The notes beneath the pieces were generated by a model, which saw only the letters and a program-made list of their open reading frames with translations, was not told the origin of the DNA and ran no database searches. Below, one piece after another: positions 9,770 to 37,719 of a stretch of DNA of 38,964 bases. The DNA is taken from UHGV virus genome UHGV-0287902. One strand, 5' to 3'. Each line of letters opens with the position of its first letter. Position 1 is the stretch's first letter. A program made the position numbers and the translations under genes. The stretch is from a virus.

Positions 9770-10192
9770 ATGGCTGAAACACAGATGAGCATGTTTGGTG
9801 ACAGCGAACAGCTGCACGCGCTGATTGACCGTCTGGATGATATTCCTGATGATGAGCTGAAAAAGAACTGGCCCGGCACGCTGCGGGACCTGGTTGATGT
9901 GATCAGTGCTGAACTGCACCGTCAGGGGATTGAACCTGCTCAGGCGGGAATGCTTGCCCGTAAGGTTGCAGCCGCACAGGCCGGGTACATGGGCGGGCGT
10001 GGTTATTATCTCCCGGTCGGTGAATCCCTTTTCACCGAACTGCGCAATAATGAAATTTTTTCCCGCTGGAGCCAGGGCGAAAAAATTGAAACCCTGCGCC
10101 GCCACTACCAGATGTCAGAGACGCAGATTTACTCCGTTATCCGCAACCAGCGTCGCCTGCATCAGGAACGCACGCAGCCACGGCTTTTCTGA
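9770..10192 (+). CDS. Mor/C-family transcription activator
   Basis: 140 aa; C-terminal HTH region GEKIETLRRHYQMSETQIYSVIRNQRR resembles Mor/C; GGAGG RBS; only copy seen. Confidence 0.8.
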   Translation: MAETQMSMFGDSEQLHALIDRLDDIPDDELKKNWPGTLRDLVDVISAELHRQGIEPAQAGMLARKVAAAQAGYMGGRGYYLPVGESLFTELRNNEIFSRWSQGEKIETLRRHYQMSETQIYSVIRNQRRLHQERTQPRLF

Positions 10193-10263
10193 TATTCCGC
10201 AAATCCTGCCCACTTTTTCCCACGGTTACGCTGACTCAGAGAACACCATGAGACAGCGTAACA

Positions 10264-18248: not shown

Positions 18249-18425
18249 TGGTTTAAGGTATGCAAACGTATTACCTTACCCCCTTCAGGCGCGTGTCGTG
18301 ATTTTCTAACCTGTATTTAACGGGCTTTAAAATCTGCGTGAAGCGCCTTTCTCATTCCCCCCCTGTCAGCACTTTCTGAAGTCCCGCAAAACCAGCCCCA
18401 AAAATACCCGGCTTATGCTGCCGGT

Positions 18426-31288: not shown

Positions 31289-31839
31289 CCCTGACCCCAC
31301 ATCAGCGCGCCCTGTTGCAGTTACTGCCTGACGGGCTGGCATGGGACAAGCGTCCGTCATCCGTACTGGCATCATTATGTCTGGGCCTCAGTCATTCGAC
31401 AGCGCGTGTATCCTGGACGGGTAAACAGCTGCTTGCCGAGCGTTTCCCTGACACGTCGCGCCTGCTGCTGGAAGACTGGGAGCGTTATCTCGGGCTTCCC
31501 GAGTGTGATATGGCCGGAGCCACCCTCACGGAGCGACAGCGTTATGCCGGCAATAAATACCGGATGAAGCCCTCGCTGAACCGTGAATTTTATATCCGGT
31601 TTGCGGCGGAGTTTGGTTATCAGATTGACATTCAGCCCTCACCGGATTCGCAGTGGGTCAGTATTGTCACGATTAACAGTGAAACCGGCTACCGGAATAT
31701 GAATGTGCTGGATGATATTCTCACGCCGCTGCGTATTTATGAAGGCGGTGCGCTGGAATGTATTCTGAACCGTTATAAGCCTGCATGGCAGACGTTTATT
31801 TACGTTTATGCAAACAGCCATGAAGAGGAGACTATTTAA
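31279..31839 (+). CDS. tail protein (Mu gp48-like)
   Basis: 186 aa, precedes tail fibre gene. Confidence 0.75.
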
Positions 31840-32720
31840 TGTTTCATGTTGATAATAATTCCGGCGTGGCGAATATGCCTGCGCTGGCACCGGCGCAGAG
31901 TAATACCACCACCTGGTTTACCGAAGGTGACGGACAAAAAGGTATCAGCTGGATTGGTCAGGACTGGCTGAATATTATCCAGGCCGAACTGCTGAATATT
32001 CTGGCTGAAGCCAGTATTCAGCCGGATAAGGCGCAGTTAAACCAGCTTACGCTGTCCATTAAAGCCATTATCGCTGCGAATGCCTTTTCCCGGAAAAATA
32101 ACCTGAAAGAAATTGCTGATGCCGGTGCGGAGGCCCAGCGTCTGGCCCGTGGTTATCTTGGTCTGGGGACGCTTGCCACAAAAAACAGTCTTGGTCCCGC
32201 TGACGTTAATGCCCTGGCGAAGGATCAGAATCTCGCCGACCTGGAGAATAAGGGAACCGCCCGTAATAATCTGGATGTTTACAGCAAAAGCGAAGGTGAT
32301 AACCGTTACCTGCGCAGGGAGCAGAACGGCGCAGACATTCCGGATAAAGGGGCTTTTATCGATAACGTCGGTTTACGGGAAACGGTGAATAAGGCGGCGA
32401 ATGCTCTGCCATCGTACGGAACGGCCGTTGCCGCGAACAGGCTGGCAAATGCCCACACAATTAATGGTGTTCCCTTTGACGGGACGCAGGATATCACTAT
32501 CTCATCAGGAACAGTAACCGCCATAAGACTGGGGTCGGTGACCGCACATATGCCCGGAACATGGGAAAGCTGGGATCTGAATCTGTGGGGCGGCAATGTT
32601 CTTACCGGAATTAAAGTACAGGATGTCGGTAAGAATACGGCAGATAACGTCGGCGGCGTGTATTACCGGTCGTTGCAGTATCTGTTAAATGGAGCATGGG
32701 TGACGGCTGCAAGTATATAA
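31839..32720 (+). CDS. S: tail fibre protein: constant part to about 32368 fused to variable C-terminal cassette in current orientation
   Basis: 293 aa; inversion crossover site lies in codon about 177. Confidence 0.85.
32356..32381 (+). other. gix-like recombination site, left
   Basis: TTATCGATAACG-TC-GGTTTACGGGAA, close to the Mu gix sequence as I recall it. Confidence 0.7.
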
Positions 32721-32729
32721 TGATATTCA

Positions 32730-32753
32730 GAAGGCCTTCCGGCCTTCTTTATT
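32730..32753. terminator. bidirectional hairpin between convergent fibre and fibre-assembly genes
   Basis: GAAGGCC-ttcc-GGCCTTC followed by TTTATT. Confidence 0.5.
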
Positions 32754-33273
32754 ACTGTGGCTGCTCAGGCCATTTAATGGCGTTAAATTCAGCTTCTGTT
32801 TTAATGGCGGGCAGTTCCATTTTCTTCACCTGACTGATGTATGCCATCCATTGGGTAAGTGCTGCTCTGTCTTCATCGCTGATGGTGTCCAGTTGTAGCT
32901 CCGTTCTCCAGTCATTAATTTTTTCATATGCCTGATTAAGATATGACTGGCGCATTGCTTCCAGTTTTCTTGCGTAGTTAACCGGAATACGGGAGATTAT
33001 GCCATTATCAAACTTCCAGTTTCCTGAAATATCCGTGCCTTCAGGGAGTTCATCGACCTCAACCACAGAAAACCCCGCAGGATACAGCGCCGAGGCGTCC
33101 TGTGATATTGAGCAGATAACGCCGCTGTCAGGTGTTATGCAAAGTTTATATTTTTTGGTGAATAATGGCAGGGATTCGTAGAAATCCTTACCATCTTCAC
33201 TCTGGAAATACTGAACATTATTACCATATGGCATATTTTCAGGATAATAACGGGTTATATTTTTTAGTTCCAT
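32752..33273 (-). CDS. tail fibre assembly protein (U'-type chaperone), silent orientation
   Basis: 173 aa; directly downstream of the minus-strand alternative fibre cassette. Confidence 0.8.
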   Translation of the reverse strand: MELKNITRYYPENMPYGNNVQYFQSEDGKDFYESLPLFTKKYKLCITPDSGVICSISQDASALYPAGFSVVEVDELPEGTDISGNWKFDNGIISRIPVNYARKLEAMRQSYLNQAYEKINDWRTELQLDTISDEDRAALTQWMAYISQVKKMELPAIKTEAEFNAIKWPEQPQ

Positions 33274-33324
33274 AAAATCCTCCTGGAAATAAATCTGTTT
33301 TAAAATATATTATTTACTGACTAT

Positions 33325-33686
33325 TTATAACTGAGATACCGTAATCCATGTACCTCCGACTAATTTTTGCAGGGGTCTGAATGCTATAAAATCGTTTGAA
33401 GCATCAACTTTACTGTCAATCTGCAGGCCTGCCATAACATTACCGTACGCAGAGTAATATGCCCCACCGTACATTACCTGCCTGTTCTCTGCTCCCAGCC
33501 TGATATCCTGGATATATCGGGAATCCGCATCCTGCTGTGTTATACCAGAAGTGATGTTTATGTCCTGCGTCCCGTCAAAGGGAACCCCATTAATATTTCT
33601 TGGGGTGGCGAGTCTATTCGCGGCAACGGCGGTGCCGTCCGATGGCAGAGCATTCGCCGCCCTGTTTACCGTTTCCCGTAAACCGA
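33325..33686 (-). CDS. alternative tail-fibre C-terminal cassette (Sv'), no own start
   Basis: Minus frame open from right gix site to TAA at 33325-33327; encodes ...[29 protein letters not shown]...[16 protein letters not shown]...VGGTWITVSQL; in frame with constant part after inversion. Confidence 0.6.
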
Positions 33687-33698
33687 GGTTTTCAGGAA
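33673..33698 (-). other. gix-like recombination site, right
   Basis: Plus strand TTCCCGTAAACC-GA-GGTTTTCAGGAA, inverted copy of left site. Confidence 0.7.
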
Positions 33699-33763
33699 AG
33701 CCAGGATTAACTCTGTTTTATTCCTCATGCGACAATTCCGGCTTTTTATAATAAGGAAATCGT

Positions 33764-34336
33764 ATGCTGATTGGGTATATCAGGGTGTCAACAAATGACC
33801 AGAATACGGCGCTACAAAGAAATGCGCTGGAATGTGCAGGATGTGAGCTGTTTTTCGAAGACAGAATAAGCGGTAAGACAAGGGAGCGTCCCGGACTTAA
33901 ACGCGCATTAAAGCGACTCCGGCCAGGGGATACCCTGCTGGTCTGGAAACTGGATCGCCTTGGACGCAGTATGCAGCACCTTGTCCTTTTAACAGAAGAA
34001 CTCCGGCAACGCGGCGTTAACTTCCGCAGCATTACGGACAATATTGATACATCCACTCCCATGGGACGTTTCTTTTTCCATATAATGGGCGCGCTGGCGG
34101 AAATGGAGCGGGAACTCATTATTGAACGTACACGCGCGGGTCTTGCTGCTGCCCGTGCTCAGGGGCGTCATGGCGGCAGACCTCAGAAACTGACAGAGAA
34201 AGAGCGGGAGCAAATCGCCCGTTTGCTGGCTAATGGCGAGTCCCGTAAACAAATCGCACTGATATTTGATATTGGCCTTTCCACCCTTTATCGTTATTTT
34301 CCTGCCTCACCAGCTCCGTCACCAAAAGTACCGTGA
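33764..34336 (+). CDS. gin: serine DNA invertase (Gin/Hin/Pin family)
   Basis: 190 aa; N-terminal GYIRVSTNDQ catalytic-serine motif; C-terminal HTH; RBS AAGGAAAT. Confidence 0.95.
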   Translation: MLIGYIRVSTNDQNTALQRNALECAGCELFFEDRISGKTRERPGLKRALKRLRPGDTLLVWKLDRLGRSMQHLVLLTEELRQRGVNFRSITDNIDTSTPMGRFFFHIMGALAEMERELIIERTRAGLAAARAQGRHGGRPQKLTEKEREQIARLLANGESRKQIALIFDIGLSTLYRYFPASPAPSPKVP

Positions 34337-34421
34337 CGCTTTTTTGAATTTCCGCAAAACACATATTTTTCAGCGGTCGCTATTCTGACTCTGTTTAATT
34401 CAGAAACAGGCAGAAAAGACG

Positions 34422-36476
34422 ATGTCAGACTCCAAGTGGAAAATGCTCTCCGCCATGCCCGGAGAGTTTTCAGTCAAGGTTGCCGGTGGCACGGTGGCAT
34501 TTATTGAAAGCCCTTTCCGCCCTTCGGGTAATAAAGGGGGGATCACCTTCGCAGACTGCGTGATCCGCTTCAGCACGAAAGAGCCATTATGGGTAATGCC
34601 GGTATCCGGTAATCCCAGTGCAGAAATCACCAGTTCAGGCGTGACTGGCATCATTCCAATCACATCTGACGTGGCCGGAACGCTCACGCCCTCCGACTGG
34701 AATGCACCGGATAACGCCGGGCCTTCCGGTAGCACGAATGGCAGCAGTTCAGAGCCGGAATATTACTTTGTTGTCATTCTCGCGGGTCAGTCAAATGGCA
34801 TGGCCTACGGCGAGGGGCTGCCGTTACCGGATTCGTTTGACCGCCCGGACCCACGCATTAAGCAACTGGCACGCCGCAGTACGGTAACGCCCAACGGTAC
34901 GTCGTGTACATACAACGACATCATTCCGGCAGACCACTGCCTGCATGATGTTCAGGATATGAGCGGGATAAACCACCCGAAAGCTGATCTGGCAAAAGGC
35001 CAGTACGGGACTGTCGGTCAGGGGTTGCATATTGCCAAAAAACTGCTTCCCTATATCCCACAGAATGCCGGGATACTTCTGGTGCCCTGTTGTCGTGGCG
35101 GGTCAGCATTCACCACTGGAGCCGACGGCTCATTCAGTGAGGCCAGCGGTGCTTCCGCTGATTCTTCACGCTGGGGGGCCGGTAAACCTCTGTATCAGGA
35201 CCTGGTAAGCCGCACCAAAGTCGCGCTGGCGAAAAACCCGAAAAACAAACTTCTGGCTGTGGTCTGGATGCAGGGAGAGGCAGACCTTGCCTCAGGAAGC
35301 CAGCAGCATAATAGTTTATTCACGGCCATGGTTCAGCAGTTCAGAACTGACCTGGCTCCGCTTGCTGCGCAGTGCGTGAGTGGAAATGCCACCACGGTGC
35401 CGTGGATTTGCGGTGATACCACGTATTACTGGAAAAACGCTGGCACCGATAAATATGAGGCAGTATACGGTGGCTACAAAGGCAAGGAAGCACAGAAAAT
35501 TTTCTTTGTACCGTTCCTGACGGATGAGAATGGACAGAGCACGCCAACGAATGCTCCGGCGGAAGACCCGGATATTGTGGCTGTCGGGTATTACGGTGCA
35601 GCATCCCGAACCCAGGGCAGTTTTGTTTCGACACAGCGTGACAGCCATTTCAGCTCATGGGCACGCAGGGGCGTCATTTCAGACCGTCTGGCCTCAGCTA
35701 TTATGCTCCATGCAGGGCGCACGGCTGAACTGATGCGCGGGCAGACCGTGACACCACCGGATGAGAAGCCGTCACCTGATACACCATCAAAACCGTCCAC
35801 GCCACCCGCAGACACCACGACGATGAGTACGCTATTTGCTTACCGGGCATCTGAGTCTGAAGGACGGTTGACACCACAGGGTTGGGCTGCCGGAGGTGGC
35901 AAGGCTCAAATCGTGGATGATGCCGGAGCCAGCGGGGGTAAGGCAATGAAACTGACCAAGGAAACAGGAAGAGCCCCCTGGTACCTTGAGCATGATGCTG
36001 GTAATGGTGCGGACCTGCTGGGTAAAGGTGGTCTTGTCAGTTGTCGTTTTAAACTCGATGGCGCGCTTACGGCTAATCAGTACGCACTGGCGCTGTACTG
36101 GCCGGTTTCTGCCCTGCCGCAAGGGGTTACTCTGGAAGGAAATGCCGGTCATAACCTGCTGGCATCGTTCTACGTACAGAGCGATGCCACAGACCTTAAC
36201 GTGATGTATCACAAAGGAAACACGGCGCAGAACACGAAGTTGGGGTCATTCGGCGCATTTAATAACGAATGGCATACGCTGGGCTTCCGTTTTGCCGGTA
36301 ACAACAGTATTGAGGTGACGCCGGTCATTGATGGTAAGGACGGGACACCATTCATGCTGTCGCAGTCTTCGGTCGGCACGTTTACGGCAGACAAGTTGCG
36401 CGTGACCGATATCACTAAAAATGCGACTTACCCGGTACTGATTGACAGTATCGTGGTGGAAGTGAATAACGCGTAA
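34422..36476 (+). CDS. SASA-domain carbohydrate O-acetylesterase (NanS-like) with C-terminal jelly-roll-like domain
   Basis: 684 aa; ILAGQSNGMAYGE motif, later RDSHF; Pro/Ser/Thr linker PPDEKPSPDTPSKPSTPPADTT; weak RBS. Confidence 0.8.
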   Translation: MSDSKWKMLSAMPGEFSVKVAGGTVAFIESPFRPSGNKGGITFADCVIRFSTKEPLWVMPVSGNPSAEITSSGVTGIIPITSDVAGTLTPSDWNAPDNAGPSGSTNGSSSEPEYYFVVILAGQSNGMAYGEGLPLPDSFDRPDPRIKQLARRSTVTPNGTSCTYNDIIPADHCLHDVQDMSGINHPKADLAKGQYGTVGQGLHIAKKLLPYIPQNAGILLVPCCRGGSAFTTGADGSFSEASGASADSSRWGAGKPLYQDLVSRTKVALAKNPKNKLLAVVWMQGEADLASGSQQHNSLFTAMVQQFRTDLAPLAAQCVSGNATTVPWICGDTTYYWKNAGTDKYEAVYGGYKGKEAQKIFFVPFLTDENGQSTPTNAPAEDPDIVAVGYYGAASRTQGSFVSTQRDSHFSSWARRGVISDRLASAIMLHAGRTAELMRGQTVTPPDEKPSPDTPSKPSTPPADTTTMSTLFAYRASESEGRLTPQGWAAGGGKAQIVDDAGASGGKAMKLTKETGRAPWYLEHDAGNGADLLGKGGLVSCRFKLDGALTANQYALALYWPVSALPQGVTLEGNAGHNLLASFYVQSDATDLNVMYHKGNTAQNTKLGSFGAFNNEWHTLGFRFAGNNSIEVTPVIDGKDGTPFMLSQSSVGTFTADKLRVTDITKNATYPVLIDSIVVEVNNA

Positions 36477-36620: not shown

Positions 36621-36803
36621 ATGACATTTTTACAGCTTATTTTATTGTATTTCTGCACGGCAGTATGTGCGTTATATCTGGTGAGTGGTGGTTATAAGGC
36701 CATCAGAAATTATGTTCGCCGCAAAATTGAGGACGCAGCAGCTGAAAAACTCAGTAAAACAGCGCAGGCAACTCCGCTCCCAAAAGACCCGACCCAGCCC
36801 TGA
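36621..36803 (+). CDS. small membrane protein
   Basis: 60 aa from ATG 36621 with GGGAGGG RBS; one N-terminal TM helix. Confidence 0.55.
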   Translation: MTFLQLILLYFCTAVCALYLVSGGYKAIRNYVRRKIEDAAAEKLSKTAQATPLPKDPTQP

Positions 36804-36838
36804 TTGCAGGGCTTTATTCCCGCATAAGGAGGATATAC

Positions 36839-37093
36839 ATGCCAGAAATTAAAGGCACCGTCACTGAAGACCTGGTAAAACAGGCACTGTATTCCGGTGA
36901 AGTAAATAAGTTGCTGAAAGCGCAGGTCCGCAAGGATTTTGAGGCACAAATCGACACTTACGTTGATGAGGTGCTGGAAAAACTTATTGGGCCAGCAGCA
37001 GCGGCCAGTGATGCTGATAATGAACCGAAAACCGACGCGCAGCCAGAGCAACCAGAACCGGCTCAGCCCGGAACTGACAGCACCATGATGTAA
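36839..37093 (+). CDS. small acidic protein
   Basis: 84 aa; strong RBS AAGGAGGA; acidic Pro/Glu-rich C-terminus. Confidence 0.6.
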   Translation: MPEIKGTVTEDLVKQALYSGEVNKLLKAQVRKDFEAQIDTYVDEVLEKLIGPAAAASDADNEPKTDAQPEQPEPAQPGTDSTMM

Positions 37094-37100
37094 CAATACA

Positions 37101-37369: not shown

Positions 37370-37538
37370 TTGCACGAATTACATCAGAAAAGCACGCGTT
37401 CCATAACTGCATAGCGGATGAATCACCTGCTGTATGAAAAGAGGTAAAGTTACCCCTGGTGGATGTCATTGCTGCAATTGTAATATCAGCTGCAATTCGC
37501 GCAGCCTGTAACTTTGGGTCTGTGGTTAGTTTATCCAT
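37332..37538 (-). CDS. hypothetical small protein, convergent with 37169-37369
   Basis: 68 aa; AGGA 3 nt upstream of ATG; 38-bp 3' overlap with plus ORF. Confidence 0.3.
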   Translation of the reverse strand: MDKLTTDPKLQAARIAADITIAAMTSTRGNFTSFHTAGDSSAMQLWNACFSDVIRAISESVDLREPQK

Positions 37539-37645
37539 TTTTCCTGCCTGAACAGATATATCTCTGCTTTACAGGAGACCGGGGAATATCATAGGATACG
37601 CCACGAGCTCGAAGTAAAGCATTGATGCAAGTTTTTACAGATTGA

Positions 37646-37684
37646 CCCAGCATAGTTCCAGCTATGCTGGGTTTCCCTTTTATG
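37646..37684 (+). terminator. strong intrinsic terminator upstream of com-mom control region
   Basis: 10-bp stem CCCAGCATAG/CTATGCTGGG, loop ttccag, then TTTCCCTTTTAT. Confidence 0.65.
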
Positions 37685-37719
37685 TAGTATCCTGTTGATT
37701 TGAAACATACTACATATGC

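What the first reader, a model, noticed from the sequence alone, without database searches (positions are those of the whole stretch)
32356..33698. Gin-invertible tail-fibre segment with only one chaperone gene
Two inverted 26-bp gix-like sites flank a 1.3 kb segment next to a serine invertase gene. My translation shows inversion would fuse the constant fibre part in frame to a different C-terminal tip on the minus strand, followed by its chaperone. In the current orientation the expressed tip has no co-directional chaperone, unlike the symmetric Sv-U / U'-Sv' layout of the Mu G segment. The first ~45 residues after the crossover are homologous in both cassettes, then the tips diverge.
Basis: partly seen in the sequence, partly recalled or inferred. 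Interest (0 to 1): 0.6.

Follow-up and report, generated by a model that had tools for sequence, protein, structure and literature searches.

The report
Invertible phage tail-fibre switch, one chaperone
A Mu-like prophage of E. coli carries a DNA segment that flips to swap the tip of its tail fibre, as in phage Mu, but the segment holds one fibre-folding chaperone gene instead of two, a layout shared by hundreds of sequenced E. coli prophages and not yet explained.

Summary
Two gix-like 26-bp sites (32356-32381, 33673-33698) lie in inverted orientation inside 150-bp inverted repeats. They flank a 1.3-kb segment beside a Gin-type serine invertase (75% identical to SfMu Gin). Inversion fuses the constant fibre part in frame to a second tip that is followed by the only Tfa chaperone gene in the 39-kb window.

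Flipping happens in nature. Two copies of the element in E. coli DLI.5a differ by exactly this inversion, with 0 mismatches over 2371 nt.

The one-chaperone layout is a conserved design, not an accident. All 31 relatives with these tip types have one Tfa, whereas Mu/SfMu-type relatives have two. The tip without a co-directional chaperone is always the same type. It is under strong purifying selection (dN/dS about 0.07-0.12). Its homologues in P2-like, P1-like and CR8 phages all have an adjacent Tfa.

The best reading is that one promiscuous Tfa serves both tips. How it would be expressed in the present orientation is unresolved, because I found no promoter.

The invertible region of the relative Sp18 was noted in 2009, but that paper's text does not discuss the asymmetry. 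I rate this a new variant of a known kind, of moderate interest.

The parts
31839..32367 (+). Sc: constant N-terminal part (codons 1-176) of the tail-fibre gene S. The whole S ORF in the present orientation is 31839-32720 (293 aa).
   Evidence: ORF. PHROG 1833 tail fibre protein, E 5e-139. It follows the baseplate J and Mu gp48 homologues.
32356..32381 (.). Left crossover site (gixL-like), central dinucleotide TC at 32368-32369.
   Evidence: Sequence. It matches SfMu gixL at 23/26. The core pattern is unique in the window.
32361..32509 (.). Left arm of the extended inverted repeat. It encodes the first ~47 residues after the crossover, shared by both cassettes.
   Evidence: I1 and I2. Arms aligned.
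32368..32720 (+). Sv cassette, now fused to Sc: a B-type tip (...[26 protein letters not shown]) with no co-directional chaperone.
   Evidence: Homologous to tips of P2-like H, P1-like S, SfMu S' and the phiTE/CR8 fibre. dN/dS is 0.07-0.14.
32729..32748 (.). G+C-rich hairpin between the convergent stop codons of Sv and Tfa. It is the likely end of the late transcript in either orientation.
   Evidence: Terminator-like site. Palindrome I7.
32752..33273 (-). The only tail-fibre assembly (Tfa, Mu U-like) gene, 173 aa.
   Evidence: Pfam Caudo_TAP, 68.3 bits against a cut-off of 22.1. PHROG 136. Homologous to Mu Tfa U, PDB 5YVQ_B, E 3.6e-16. It is the only Tfa hit in the window.
33274..33324 (-). 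AT-rich 51-nt spacer between the Sv' stop codon and the Tfa start codon, with its own AGGAGG ribosome-binding site.
   Evidence: The equivalent gap is 1-6 nt in SfMu, P2-like, P1-like and CR8.
33325..33686 (-). Sv' cassette: a silent alternative tip with no promoter and no start codon (A-type, ...FIAFRPLQKLVGGTWITVSQL).
   Evidence: Translation, in-frame fusion. Homologous to the Mu S C-terminal domain, PDB 5YVQ_A residues 435-502.
33545..33693 (.). Right arm of the extended inverted repeat.
33673..33698 (.). Right crossover site (gixR-like), central dinucleotide GA at 33685-33686.
   Evidence: (21/26 to SfMu gixR).
33764..34336 (+). gin: serine DNA invertase of the Gin/Cin/Pin/Hin group, outside the segment and reading away from it.
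   Evidence: Pfam Resolvase 1.6e-51 and HTH_7 4.9e-15. 75% identity to SfMu Gin.

Best explanation
This is a working Gin/gix-type host-range switch in a Mu-like E. coli prophage.

How the switch works. The invertase cuts at the central dinucleotides of the two 26-bp sites (32368-9 and 33685-6) and turns the 1319-bp segment. The constant fibre part Sc is then joined in frame either to the B-type tip Sv (present state) or to the A-type tip Sv'. A central hairpin ends the late transcript in both states.

How it differs from Mu. The segment carries a single Tfa gene, next to Sv'. I propose that this one Tfa is a promiscuous chaperone that serves both tips. In the flipped state it is co-transcribed with the fibre gene. 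In the present state it would have to be made from its own, still unidentified, start site in the unusually long spacer or in the silent Sv' cassette.

Shown: the anatomy, the in-frame fusions, natural isomers of both orientations, conservation of the one-Tfa layout, and strong selection on the tip that lacks a co-directional Tfa.

Inferred: that the B-type tip needs a Tfa, that the single Tfa binds both tips, and that it is expressed in both orientations.
For: Anatomy.

Natural inversion:
- In E. coli DLI.5a, one copy (L010) equals the in-silico inversion at the core of the other copy (L011), with 0 mismatches over 2371 nt. The nearest informative SNP lies 36 nt inside the core.
- The predicted flipped junction of the window is found at 100% identity in 3 genomes.
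- Both orientations occur in the window's allele family (about 18 as in the window, 2 flipped) and in the O157/O111 family (about 175 against 26).
- 11 window-like viral contigs end inside the repeat.

Conserved design: 31 window-like loci have exactly one Tfa and none has two, whereas 11 Mu/SfMu-type loci have two. The tip opposite the Tfa is always B-type.

The B-type tip is functional: median dN/dS is 0.07 (96-aa form) and 0.12 (86-aa form), with dS above 1.

The B-type tip probably needs a Tfa: homologous tips in a P2-like phage (62% identical to the O157-family B tip), a P1-like phage, CR8 and Citrobacter braakii all have a Tfa downstream, 1-6 nt away in the three phages and 69 nt away in C. 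braakii.

Promiscuity:
- Tfa type and adjacent-tip type are shuffled between loci.
- The N-terminal, fibre-binding domain of this Tfa is 38-40% identical to the CR8/phiTE Tfa, whose partner tip is B-type, and 56% identical to the phage 186 Tfa, whose partner is a third tip type.
- C. braakii has three tip cassettes and one Tfa.

Other support: a lineage that lost Sv' and gin keeps an intact convergent Tfa. The Tfa has its own strong ribosome-binding site after a 51-95 nt spacer, against 1-6 nt in other phages.
Against: I found no convincing promoter on the Tfa strand.
- The sigma-70 scan gives no minus-strand site in 31700-34500.
- My looser scan gives only chance-level, non-conserved hits.
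- The 10-mer YCCGCAAAWC lies upstream of the lysis, protease/scaffold and esterase genes and may mark late promoters. It is absent upstream of Tfa.

The spacers of the three A-tip types are not homologous, so there is no conserved footprint.

The locked lineage is weak evidence. Its junction is young (K 0.03-0.06) while its Tfa alleles differ by dS 0.1-0.43. The low dN/dS of Tfa there may therefore predate locking.

No binding or expression data exist. Partner Tfas of B-type tips elsewhere have several different N-domain types, so the CR8 link is suggestive only.
Confidence: 0.5

Rival explanations
1. The B-type tip folds without any Tfa. The switch then alternates between a chaperone-independent fibre and a chaperone-dependent one that may carry Tfa at its tip.
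For: The layout without a co-directional Tfa has persisted across dS above 1 while the tip stayed under strong selection. No promoter was found for the convergent Tfa. The orientation that expresses the B-type tip predominates in assemblies. That fits the idea that particles made in this state are the ones that lysogenise E. coli.
Against: Close homologues of the tip (up to 62% identity) in P2-like, P1-like, CR8 and C. braakii contexts are all followed by a Tfa. Established genetics of Mu U, P2 G and lambda Tfa says such fibres need it (background knowledge). The tip is only about 115 aa and has no intramolecular chaperone domain.
Confidence: 0.2
2. The B-type tip uses a Tfa supplied in trans, either by other prophages in the host or by a second copy of the element in the opposite orientation.
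For: The N-domain of the Rac-SA53 Tfa is 61% identical to this one. Genomes often hold several copies of the element (median 2 places, up to 7). DLI.5a and TOE17 each hold one copy in each orientation. Tfa and tip pairings are loose.
Against: Dependence on whatever the host happens to carry is hard to reconcile with strong, long-term selection on the tip across many hosts. Nothing here shows that foreign Tfas act on this fibre.
Confidence: 0.15
3. The present orientation is an OFF or decayed state. The fibre misfolds without its lost chaperone, and only the flipped state gives infective phage.
For: No co-directional chaperone and no promoter for the convergent one.
Against: The B-type tip is under strong purifying selection (dN/dS 0.07-0.12 at dS up to above 1) and is intact in every locus. 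It is the expressed tip in most assemblies and in a widespread lineage that can no longer flip.
Confidence: 0.07
4. The orientation differences between genomes arise by general homologous recombination or gene conversion between the 150-bp inverted repeats, not by the invertase.
For: In NCCP 13983 (L001), three SNPs 19-24 nt inside the core stayed with their side and three more were homogenised. The O157-family pair L005/L006 shows a similar pattern for one cassette. Both DLI.5a copies carry a frameshifted gin.
Against: The DLI.5a pair is an exact reciprocal inversion, with the exchange confined to 32368-32404. The sites match gix at 21-23 of 26 positions with the same central dinucleotide, and they sit beside an intact gin in the window. 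The identical stretches in the repeat are only about 20 nt, which is poor substrate for RecA. Gene conversion after Gin-mediated flipping explains the SNP mosaics equally well.
Confidence: 0.1

Closest known systems
G segment of phage Mu and SfMu (Sc-[Sv U | U' Sv']-gin), and the C segment of P1
   Same: A constant fibre part lies outside the segment and alternative tips lie inside, fused in frame at 26-bp crossover sites. The invertase gene sits just outside and reads away from the segment. Gin is 75% identical to SfMu Gin, the sites match SfMu gix at 21-23 of 26 positions, and the Tfa is homologous to Mu U.
   Different: There is one Tfa instead of two, and the B-type tip ends 9 nt before a central hairpin with no chaperone behind it. 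The fibre is much shorter (293 aa, against 488 aa in SfMu). The Sv'-Tfa gap is 51 nt rather than 1-2 nt. The inverted repeat extends to about 150 bp.
Prophage Sp18 of E. coli O157:H7 Sakai and its relatives in O111/O157 strains
   Same: Same prophage family and the same one-Tfa invertible layout, with the same B-type tip opposite the Tfa. [quoted passage not shown]
   Different: It is a different allele set: tips are 54-58% identical and Tfa is 62% identical. One representative of this family, strain 2014C-3011 (L006; its B tip also occurs in O157-type loci), has a 1-bp deletion in the outer half of gixR. The single-chaperone asymmetry is not discussed in the passages of that paper I read.
Multiple-inversion systems (Min of p15B) and the three-cassette segment of a Citrobacter braakii Mu-like prophage (L007/L054)
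   Same: Several alternative tips share fewer chaperone genes than there are tips. In C. braakii, three tips and three gix-like sites go with one Tfa.
   Different: The window has only two sites and two tips. In C. braakii the B-type tip is the one next to the Tfa. The p15B comparison rests on memory and was not tested here.
TfaMu-type tail-fibre assembly proteins (North et al. 2019, as summarised in PMC9608196)
   Same: Two-domain Tfa with a variable N-domain that binds the fibre tip and a conserved C-domain. Pfam Caudo_TAP and a PDB 5YVQ_B match.
   Different: Here one Tfa is positioned to serve, or to fail to serve, two tips that are only 34% identical. In one orientation the Tfa gene is antisense to the fibre operon.

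Membership tests
Gin/Cin/Pin/Hin (Din) DNA inversion systems | Small serine recombinase with an N-terminal catalytic domain (active-site Ser in YxRVST) and a C-terminal helix-turn-helix | tested here: met
   Pfam Resolvase 1.6e-51 and HTH_7 4.9e-15. The sequence begins MLIGYIRVSTNDQ. 75% identity to SfMu Gin.
Gin/Cin/Pin/Hin (Din) DNA inversion systems | Two 26-bp imperfectly palindromic crossover sites in inverted orientation with the same central dinucleotide | tested here: met
   32356-32381 and 33673-33698, with central TC and GA (the same dinucleotide read in inverted orientation). 23/26 and 21/26 matches to SfMu gix. Only these two sites occur in the window.
Gin/Cin/Pin/Hin (Din) DNA inversion systems | Fis-dependent recombinational enhancer (sis) within the 5' part of the invertase gene | not tested
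   Fis sites are too degenerate to call from sequence with these tools. The position of gin relative to gixR (66 nt) is as in SfMu.
Gin/Cin/Pin/Hin (Din) DNA inversion systems | Both inversion isomers occur, with exchange at the crossover site | tested here: met
   The two DLI.5a copies differ by an exact inversion, 0 mismatches in 2371 nt, with the exchange confined to 32368-32404. Other genomes show extra gene-conversion mosaics near the site. That the invertase is the catalyst is inferred.
Mu G / P1 C segment layout (Sv-U / U'-Sv') | Constant 5' fibre part outside the segment, alternative 3' parts inside it, joined in frame | tested here: met
Mu G / P1 C segment layout (Sv-U / U'-Sv') | Each alternative tip is followed by its own co-directional assembly gene (U and U') | tested here: not met
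   One Tfa in the window and in 31 related loci. SfMu, the Yersinia Mu-like phages and 11 Mu-type contigs have two.
Caudo_TAP / TfaMu tail-fibre assembly proteins | Profile match above the curated cut-off and homology to the solved Mu Tfa | tested here: met
   PF02413, 68.3 bits against a cut-off of 22.1. 5YVQ_B, E 3.6e-16.
Caudo_TAP / TfaMu tail-fibre assembly proteins | Encoded immediately downstream of, and co-transcribed with, the fibre gene it serves | tested here: inconclusive
   True for Sv' after inversion, though with a 51-nt gap. Not true for the Sv tip expressed now, for which the Tfa gene is convergent.
Fibres with a C-terminal intramolecular chaperone (Peptidase_S74 type) | Self-cleaving chaperone domain of about 150 aa at the C-terminus of the fibre | tested here: not met
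   No Pfam family matches the 293-aa S protein. The tip after the shared region is only about 70 aa.

The most novel reading that the evidence does not exclude
Inversion here toggles two things at once: the fibre tip, and whether a Tfa is made with it. In Mu, the Tfa stays on the mature fibre and helps bind the host (North et al., as summarised in PMC9608196). One orientation would then give Tfa-capped fibres and the other bare, self-folding B-type fibres. That would make the B-type tip a natural example of a P2/Mu-class fibre tip that folds without its chaperone. Alternatively, an orientation-independent internal promoter keeps one chaperone available to both tips. Either outcome would revise the accepted pairing of one chaperone per tip.
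Probability: 0.25. Interest if true: 0.55.

Novelty: new variant of a known kind. Interest (0 to 1): 0.35.

Why it matters
Tail-fibre tips and their Tfa chaperones are the parts exchanged when phages and tailocins are re-targeted. The working rule is that each tip travels with its own chaperone. This widespread family of E. coli prophages, which includes Sp18 of O157:H7, has kept a strongly selected tip without a co-directional chaperone over long divergence.

Finding out whether that tip shares the neighbour's Tfa, folds alone, or borrows a host prophage's Tfa would show how specific these chaperones really are. It would also show whether a chaperone can be omitted or shared in engineered fibres.

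The experiments are simple. The system sits in ordinary E. coli, and natural locked variants already exist.

Tried and rejected
1. A missed + strand chaperone. A Tfa profile on all six-frame fragments found one hit only. The + strand ORFs in the segment are 66 aa or shorter.

2. An intramolecular chaperone domain in S. There is no Pfam hit and the tip is too short.

3. A promoter for the convergent Tfa.
- The sigma-70 scan gave no minus-strand site.
- A looser scan gave chance-level, non-conserved hits.
- An extended -10-like TGGTATAAC at 33539-33547 (-) exists only in this tip allele, so I did not rely on it.
- A candidate late-promoter box, YCCGCAAAWC, is absent upstream of Tfa.

4. The locked lineage as proof that a convergent Tfa is under selection. 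dN/dS is 0.10-0.23. However, the locked junction is much younger (K 0.03-0.06) than the Tfa divergence (dS 0.1-0.43). The signal may therefore predate locking or come from recombination, so I downgraded it.

5. A strict cognate link between this Tfa's N-domain and B-type tips. The CR8/phiTE link holds, but B-type tips elsewhere pair with other N-domain types, and the closest N-domain (phage 186) pairs with a third tip type. This supports promiscuity, not cognate pairing.

6. A genome-contig scan with the single Sc sequence gave only 2 loci. A profile scan of viral contigs gave 71.

7. North and Davidson 2021 (PMC7811200) is not in the library. Sp18 infectivity was not determined in PMC2669165.

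8. The phiTE virion structure does not resolve the tip of its short tail fibre (the fibre whose tip matches the B type), so it does not show whether a Tfa is bound there.

9. Structure prediction was not run. Only monomers are allowed, and the question concerns a trimer-chaperone complex.
Full report
**Context**

The window is an essentially complete Mu-like prophage of E. coli. It holds transposase-sized ORFs at the left end (1416-3506 and 3578-4510), followed by these genes:
- GemA and a Mor-family activator
- lysozyme
- Mu gp27, the I protease/scaffold and the gp41 tail assembly protein
- baseplate J and gp48
- the 293-aa fibre gene S (31839-32720, PHROG 1833)
- the segment in question, then gin
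- a 684-aa esterase-like gene, and further right a Mom homologue

Near-identical DNA (99% or more) occurs in about 18 complete E. coli genomes.

**Check of the observation**

- Inverted repeats of 86 nt (87%) and 50 nt (84%) flank a 1.3-kb segment.
- At their outer ends lie the 26-mers TTATCGATAACGTCGGTTTACGGGAA (32356-32381) and TTCCCGTAAACCGAGGTTTTCAGGAA (33673-33698).
- These match the gix sites read from phage SfMu at 23/26 and 21/26 positions.
- They are the only two such sites in the window, against 0.06 expected by chance.
- The neighbouring gene (33764-34336) is a serine recombinase with a C-terminal helix-turn-helix. It is 75% identical to SfMu Gin.
- The central dinucleotides fall on codon positions 2-3 in both frames.
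- Inverting 32368-33686 in silico gives an intact 296-aa fibre. After a 51-nt gap comes the 173-aa Tfa gene 32752-33273.
- That gene is Caudo_TAP (68 bits against a cut-off of 22) and is homologous to Mu Tfa U in PDB 5YVQ.
- A Tfa profile run over every six-frame fragment finds no second copy anywhere in the window.

So in the present orientation the expressed tip has no co-directional chaperone.

**Does the segment flip?**

Yes, in nature.
- Strain NCCP 13983 carries the same element with the segment turned and the Tfa co-directional.
- The O157/O111 allele family is found in both states as well. Roughly 26 complete genomes have the Tfa co-directional and about 175 have it convergent.
- The cleanest case is E. 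coli DLI.5a, which holds two copies. One copy equals the in-silico inversion of the other with 0 mismatches over 2371 nt. The nearest informative SNP places the exchange between 32368 and 32404.
- The exact flipped left junction predicted from the window occurs at 100% identity in three genomes.
- Eleven window-like viral contigs end inside the repeat, as expected when a sequenced culture is mixed. This is suggestive only.

Two cautions apply.
- In NCCP 13983, and for one cassette of the O157-family pair, SNPs 19-55 nt inside the core stayed with their side or were homogenised. Gene conversion or homologous exchange within the 150-bp repeat therefore also occurs.
- Both DLI.5a copies have a frameshifted gin. 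Catalysis by this particular invertase is inferred, not shown.

**The asymmetry is a family design**

I scanned viral contigs with a profile of the constant fibre part. I then scanned the 71 loci with profiles for Sc, tips, Tfa and Gin.
- Mu/SfMu-type loci (Sc about 48% identical) are symmetric, tip-Tfa / Tfa-tip-gin, in 11 loci.
- Window-type loci always have one Tfa, in 31 loci. Of these, 15 are convergent with a second tip present, 5 are co-directional with a second tip present, 2 more are co-directional with no second tip in range (one of them at a contig end), and 9 are convergent with no second tip. Seven of those 9 are locked variants and 2 are truncated loci.
- In all of them the tip opposite the Tfa is one type, here called B. 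It ends ...ADN[VI]GGVYYR[PS][LV]Q...W.T..S[IV] and comes in 86-aa and 96-aa forms.
- The tip next to the Tfa is one of three unrelated-looking A types.
- A Citrobacter braakii relative has three tip cassettes, three gix-like sites and one Tfa.
- A 70%-Sc relative (L045) is symmetric but uses a different chaperone family. The asymmetry therefore belongs to the B/A cassette set, not to every relative.

**Is the chaperone-less tip functional, and does it need a chaperone?**

- B-type tips are under strong purifying selection. Median dN/dS is 0.07 for the 96-aa form and 0.12 for the 86-aa form, at dS up to above 1. This rules out a decayed cassette.
- The tip has no intramolecular chaperone domain.
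- Its homologues are tips of a P2-like H protein (62% identical to the O157-family B tip), a P1-like S protein, SfMu S' and the CR8/phiTE fibre. In those phages I inspected (the P2-like and P1-like phages, SfMu and CR8) a Tfa gene follows within 1-6 nt. In C. braakii the B-type tip is the one next to the Tfa.
- By homology, the B-type tip most likely needs a Tfa.

**Can the single Tfa serve both tips?**

- The two tips are homologous throughout and share the C-terminal Y[YF]RP.Q...NG.W.T pattern.
- Sv' aligns to the C-terminal region of Mu S (5YVQ_A residues 435-502), the region to which the Mu Tfa binds according to North et al. as summarised in PMC9608196.
- Tfa type and adjacent-tip type are reshuffled between loci. 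The A3 tip occurs with two Tfas that are 62% identical. Nearly identical Tfas sit beside A1 or A3.
- The fibre-binding N-domain of this Tfa is 38-40% identical to the Tfa of CR8/phiTE (partner tip B-type), 56% to the phage 186 Tfa (a third tip type) and 61% to a Rac-type Tfa.

These facts point to a promiscuous chaperone.

**The gap in the model: expression**

In the present orientation the Tfa gene is antisense to the late operon, behind a hairpin (32729-32748).
- The tool's sigma-70 scan gave no minus-strand site.
- My looser scan gave only chance-level, non-conserved hits.
- The 10-mer YCCGCAAAWC lies upstream of the lysozyme (10196), protease/scaffold (18383) and esterase (34351) genes. 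It is absent upstream of Tfa.
- What is unusual is the 51-95 nt AT-rich spacer with its own strong ribosome-binding site between the A tip and Tfa. In Mu-type, P2-like, P1-like and CR8 phages that gap is 1-6 nt.

**The locked lineage**

One lineage has had 33280-34269 (Sv' and most of gin) removed, leaving only a short Sv' remnant and spacer (about 145 nt with no match in this window) upstream of Tfa. It is locked with the B tip expressed and an intact convergent Tfa. All members share the same endpoints, so the event happened once.

Tfa dN/dS within this lineage is 0.10-0.23. However, the junction is much younger (K 0.03-0.06) than the Tfa divergence. I do not count this as proof of selection after locking.

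**Verdict**

It is a Gin/gix host-range switch that works like the Mu G segment. It fails one defining feature of that layout, namely two assembly genes.

My best explanation, at confidence 0.5, is a single promiscuous Tfa shared by both tips and expressed in the present orientation from an unidentified internal start. The rivals are:
- a chaperone-independent B tip (0.2)
- Tfa supplied in trans (0.15)
- an OFF state (0.07)

**Prior knowledge and score**

Asadulghani et al. [quoted passage not shown] Genome annotation pipelines label the genes. In the papers I searched and read I found no discussion of the single-chaperone asymmetry.

I therefore class it as a new variant of a known kind, with interest 0.35.

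Noticed in passing
window 34422-36476 (+), with the upstream box at 34351-34360: Between gin and the mom region lies a 684-aa protein with a sialate O-acetylesterase-type (SASA) domain and a C-terminal DUF6645 domain (PHROG 143, unknown function). It is preceded by the same TCCGCAAAAC box found upstream of the lysis and protease/scaffold genes. It may therefore be a late, possibly virion-associated, receptor-modifying enzyme. In C. braakii a collagen-repeat fibre-like gene occupies this position.
   Followed up: partly
window 10196-10205, 18383-18392, 34351-34360 (also 7516 and 14518), + strand: The 10-mer YCCGCAAAWC occurs upstream of the lysozyme, I protease/scaffold and esterase genes. With up to one mismatch there are 25 matches against 13.4 expected by chance. 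It is a candidate binding box for the single Mor/C-family activator (9770-10192). Only one such activator gene was seen, whereas Mu has two.
   Followed up: partly
L010 and L011 (E. coli DLI.5a, NZ_CP103972.1): One genome holds two deleted copies of the element with the segment in opposite orientations. Both copies carry the same frameshift in gin. Either the inversion preceded the frameshift and the duplication, or another invertase acted in trans.
   Followed up: partly
L003, L014-L016, L020, L031, L033, L036 (equivalent to window 33280-34269): A widespread 'locked' lineage lacks Sv' and most of gin, with identical endpoints in all members. It keeps the B tip expressed and an intact convergent Tfa, and it carries two different B-tip forms. 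This points to one deletion followed by recombination. The sequence retained upstream of Tfa is the spacer of the A3-type cassette.
   Followed up: yes
L007 / L054 (Citrobacter braakii), 5819-8223: The segment has three tip cassettes and three gix-like sites but one 229-aa Tfa. Its C-terminal half resembles a different chaperone family. The third cassette ends right at the second site, so the Tfa would lie about 650 nt downstream after inversion.
   Followed up: partly
L006 (E. coli 2014C-3011), right crossover site; O157-family counts: This representative has a 1-bp deletion in the outer half of gixR (CCCTGAAA-CCTCGG) and a truncated esterase gene. About 175 of roughly 200 genomes of this allele family share the convergent-Tfa orientation. 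That could reflect clonal descent or a disabled switch.
   Followed up: no
window 32387-32423 and mirror positions 33631-33667; L001: SNPs in the first ~55 nt inside the crossover sites assort independently of cassette and of side between genomes. The repeat arms appear to undergo gene conversion in addition to site-specific exchange.
   Followed up: partly
L045 5001-8524: A relative with 70% identical Sc has a symmetric layout, fibre-chaperone / chaperone-tip. Its chaperones are of another family (196 and 244 aa) and one tip is of the tail-collar type. This shows how freely these modules are swapped.
   Followed up: no
L017, L023, L032, L037-L042, L048, L056: Eleven of the window-like viral contigs end within 700 nt of the start of S, that is, inside the inverted repeat. 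This is as expected if the sequenced cultures held both orientations.
   Followed up: partly
window 38099-38836 (+): A Mom-family gene lies about 3.7 kb to the right of gin. It is separated from gin by the esterase gene and by two minus-strand ORFs (36710-37096 and 37531-37830) of unknown function. In Mu and SfMu, com-mom follow gin directly.
   Followed up: no
L086 (phage 186) 909-934: The non-invertible fibre gene K of phage 186 carries an annotated vestigial 'Mu-like inversion crossover site'. Its Tfa has the N-domain closest to the window's Tfa among isolated phages outside the lambdoid group (56%).
   Followed up: no
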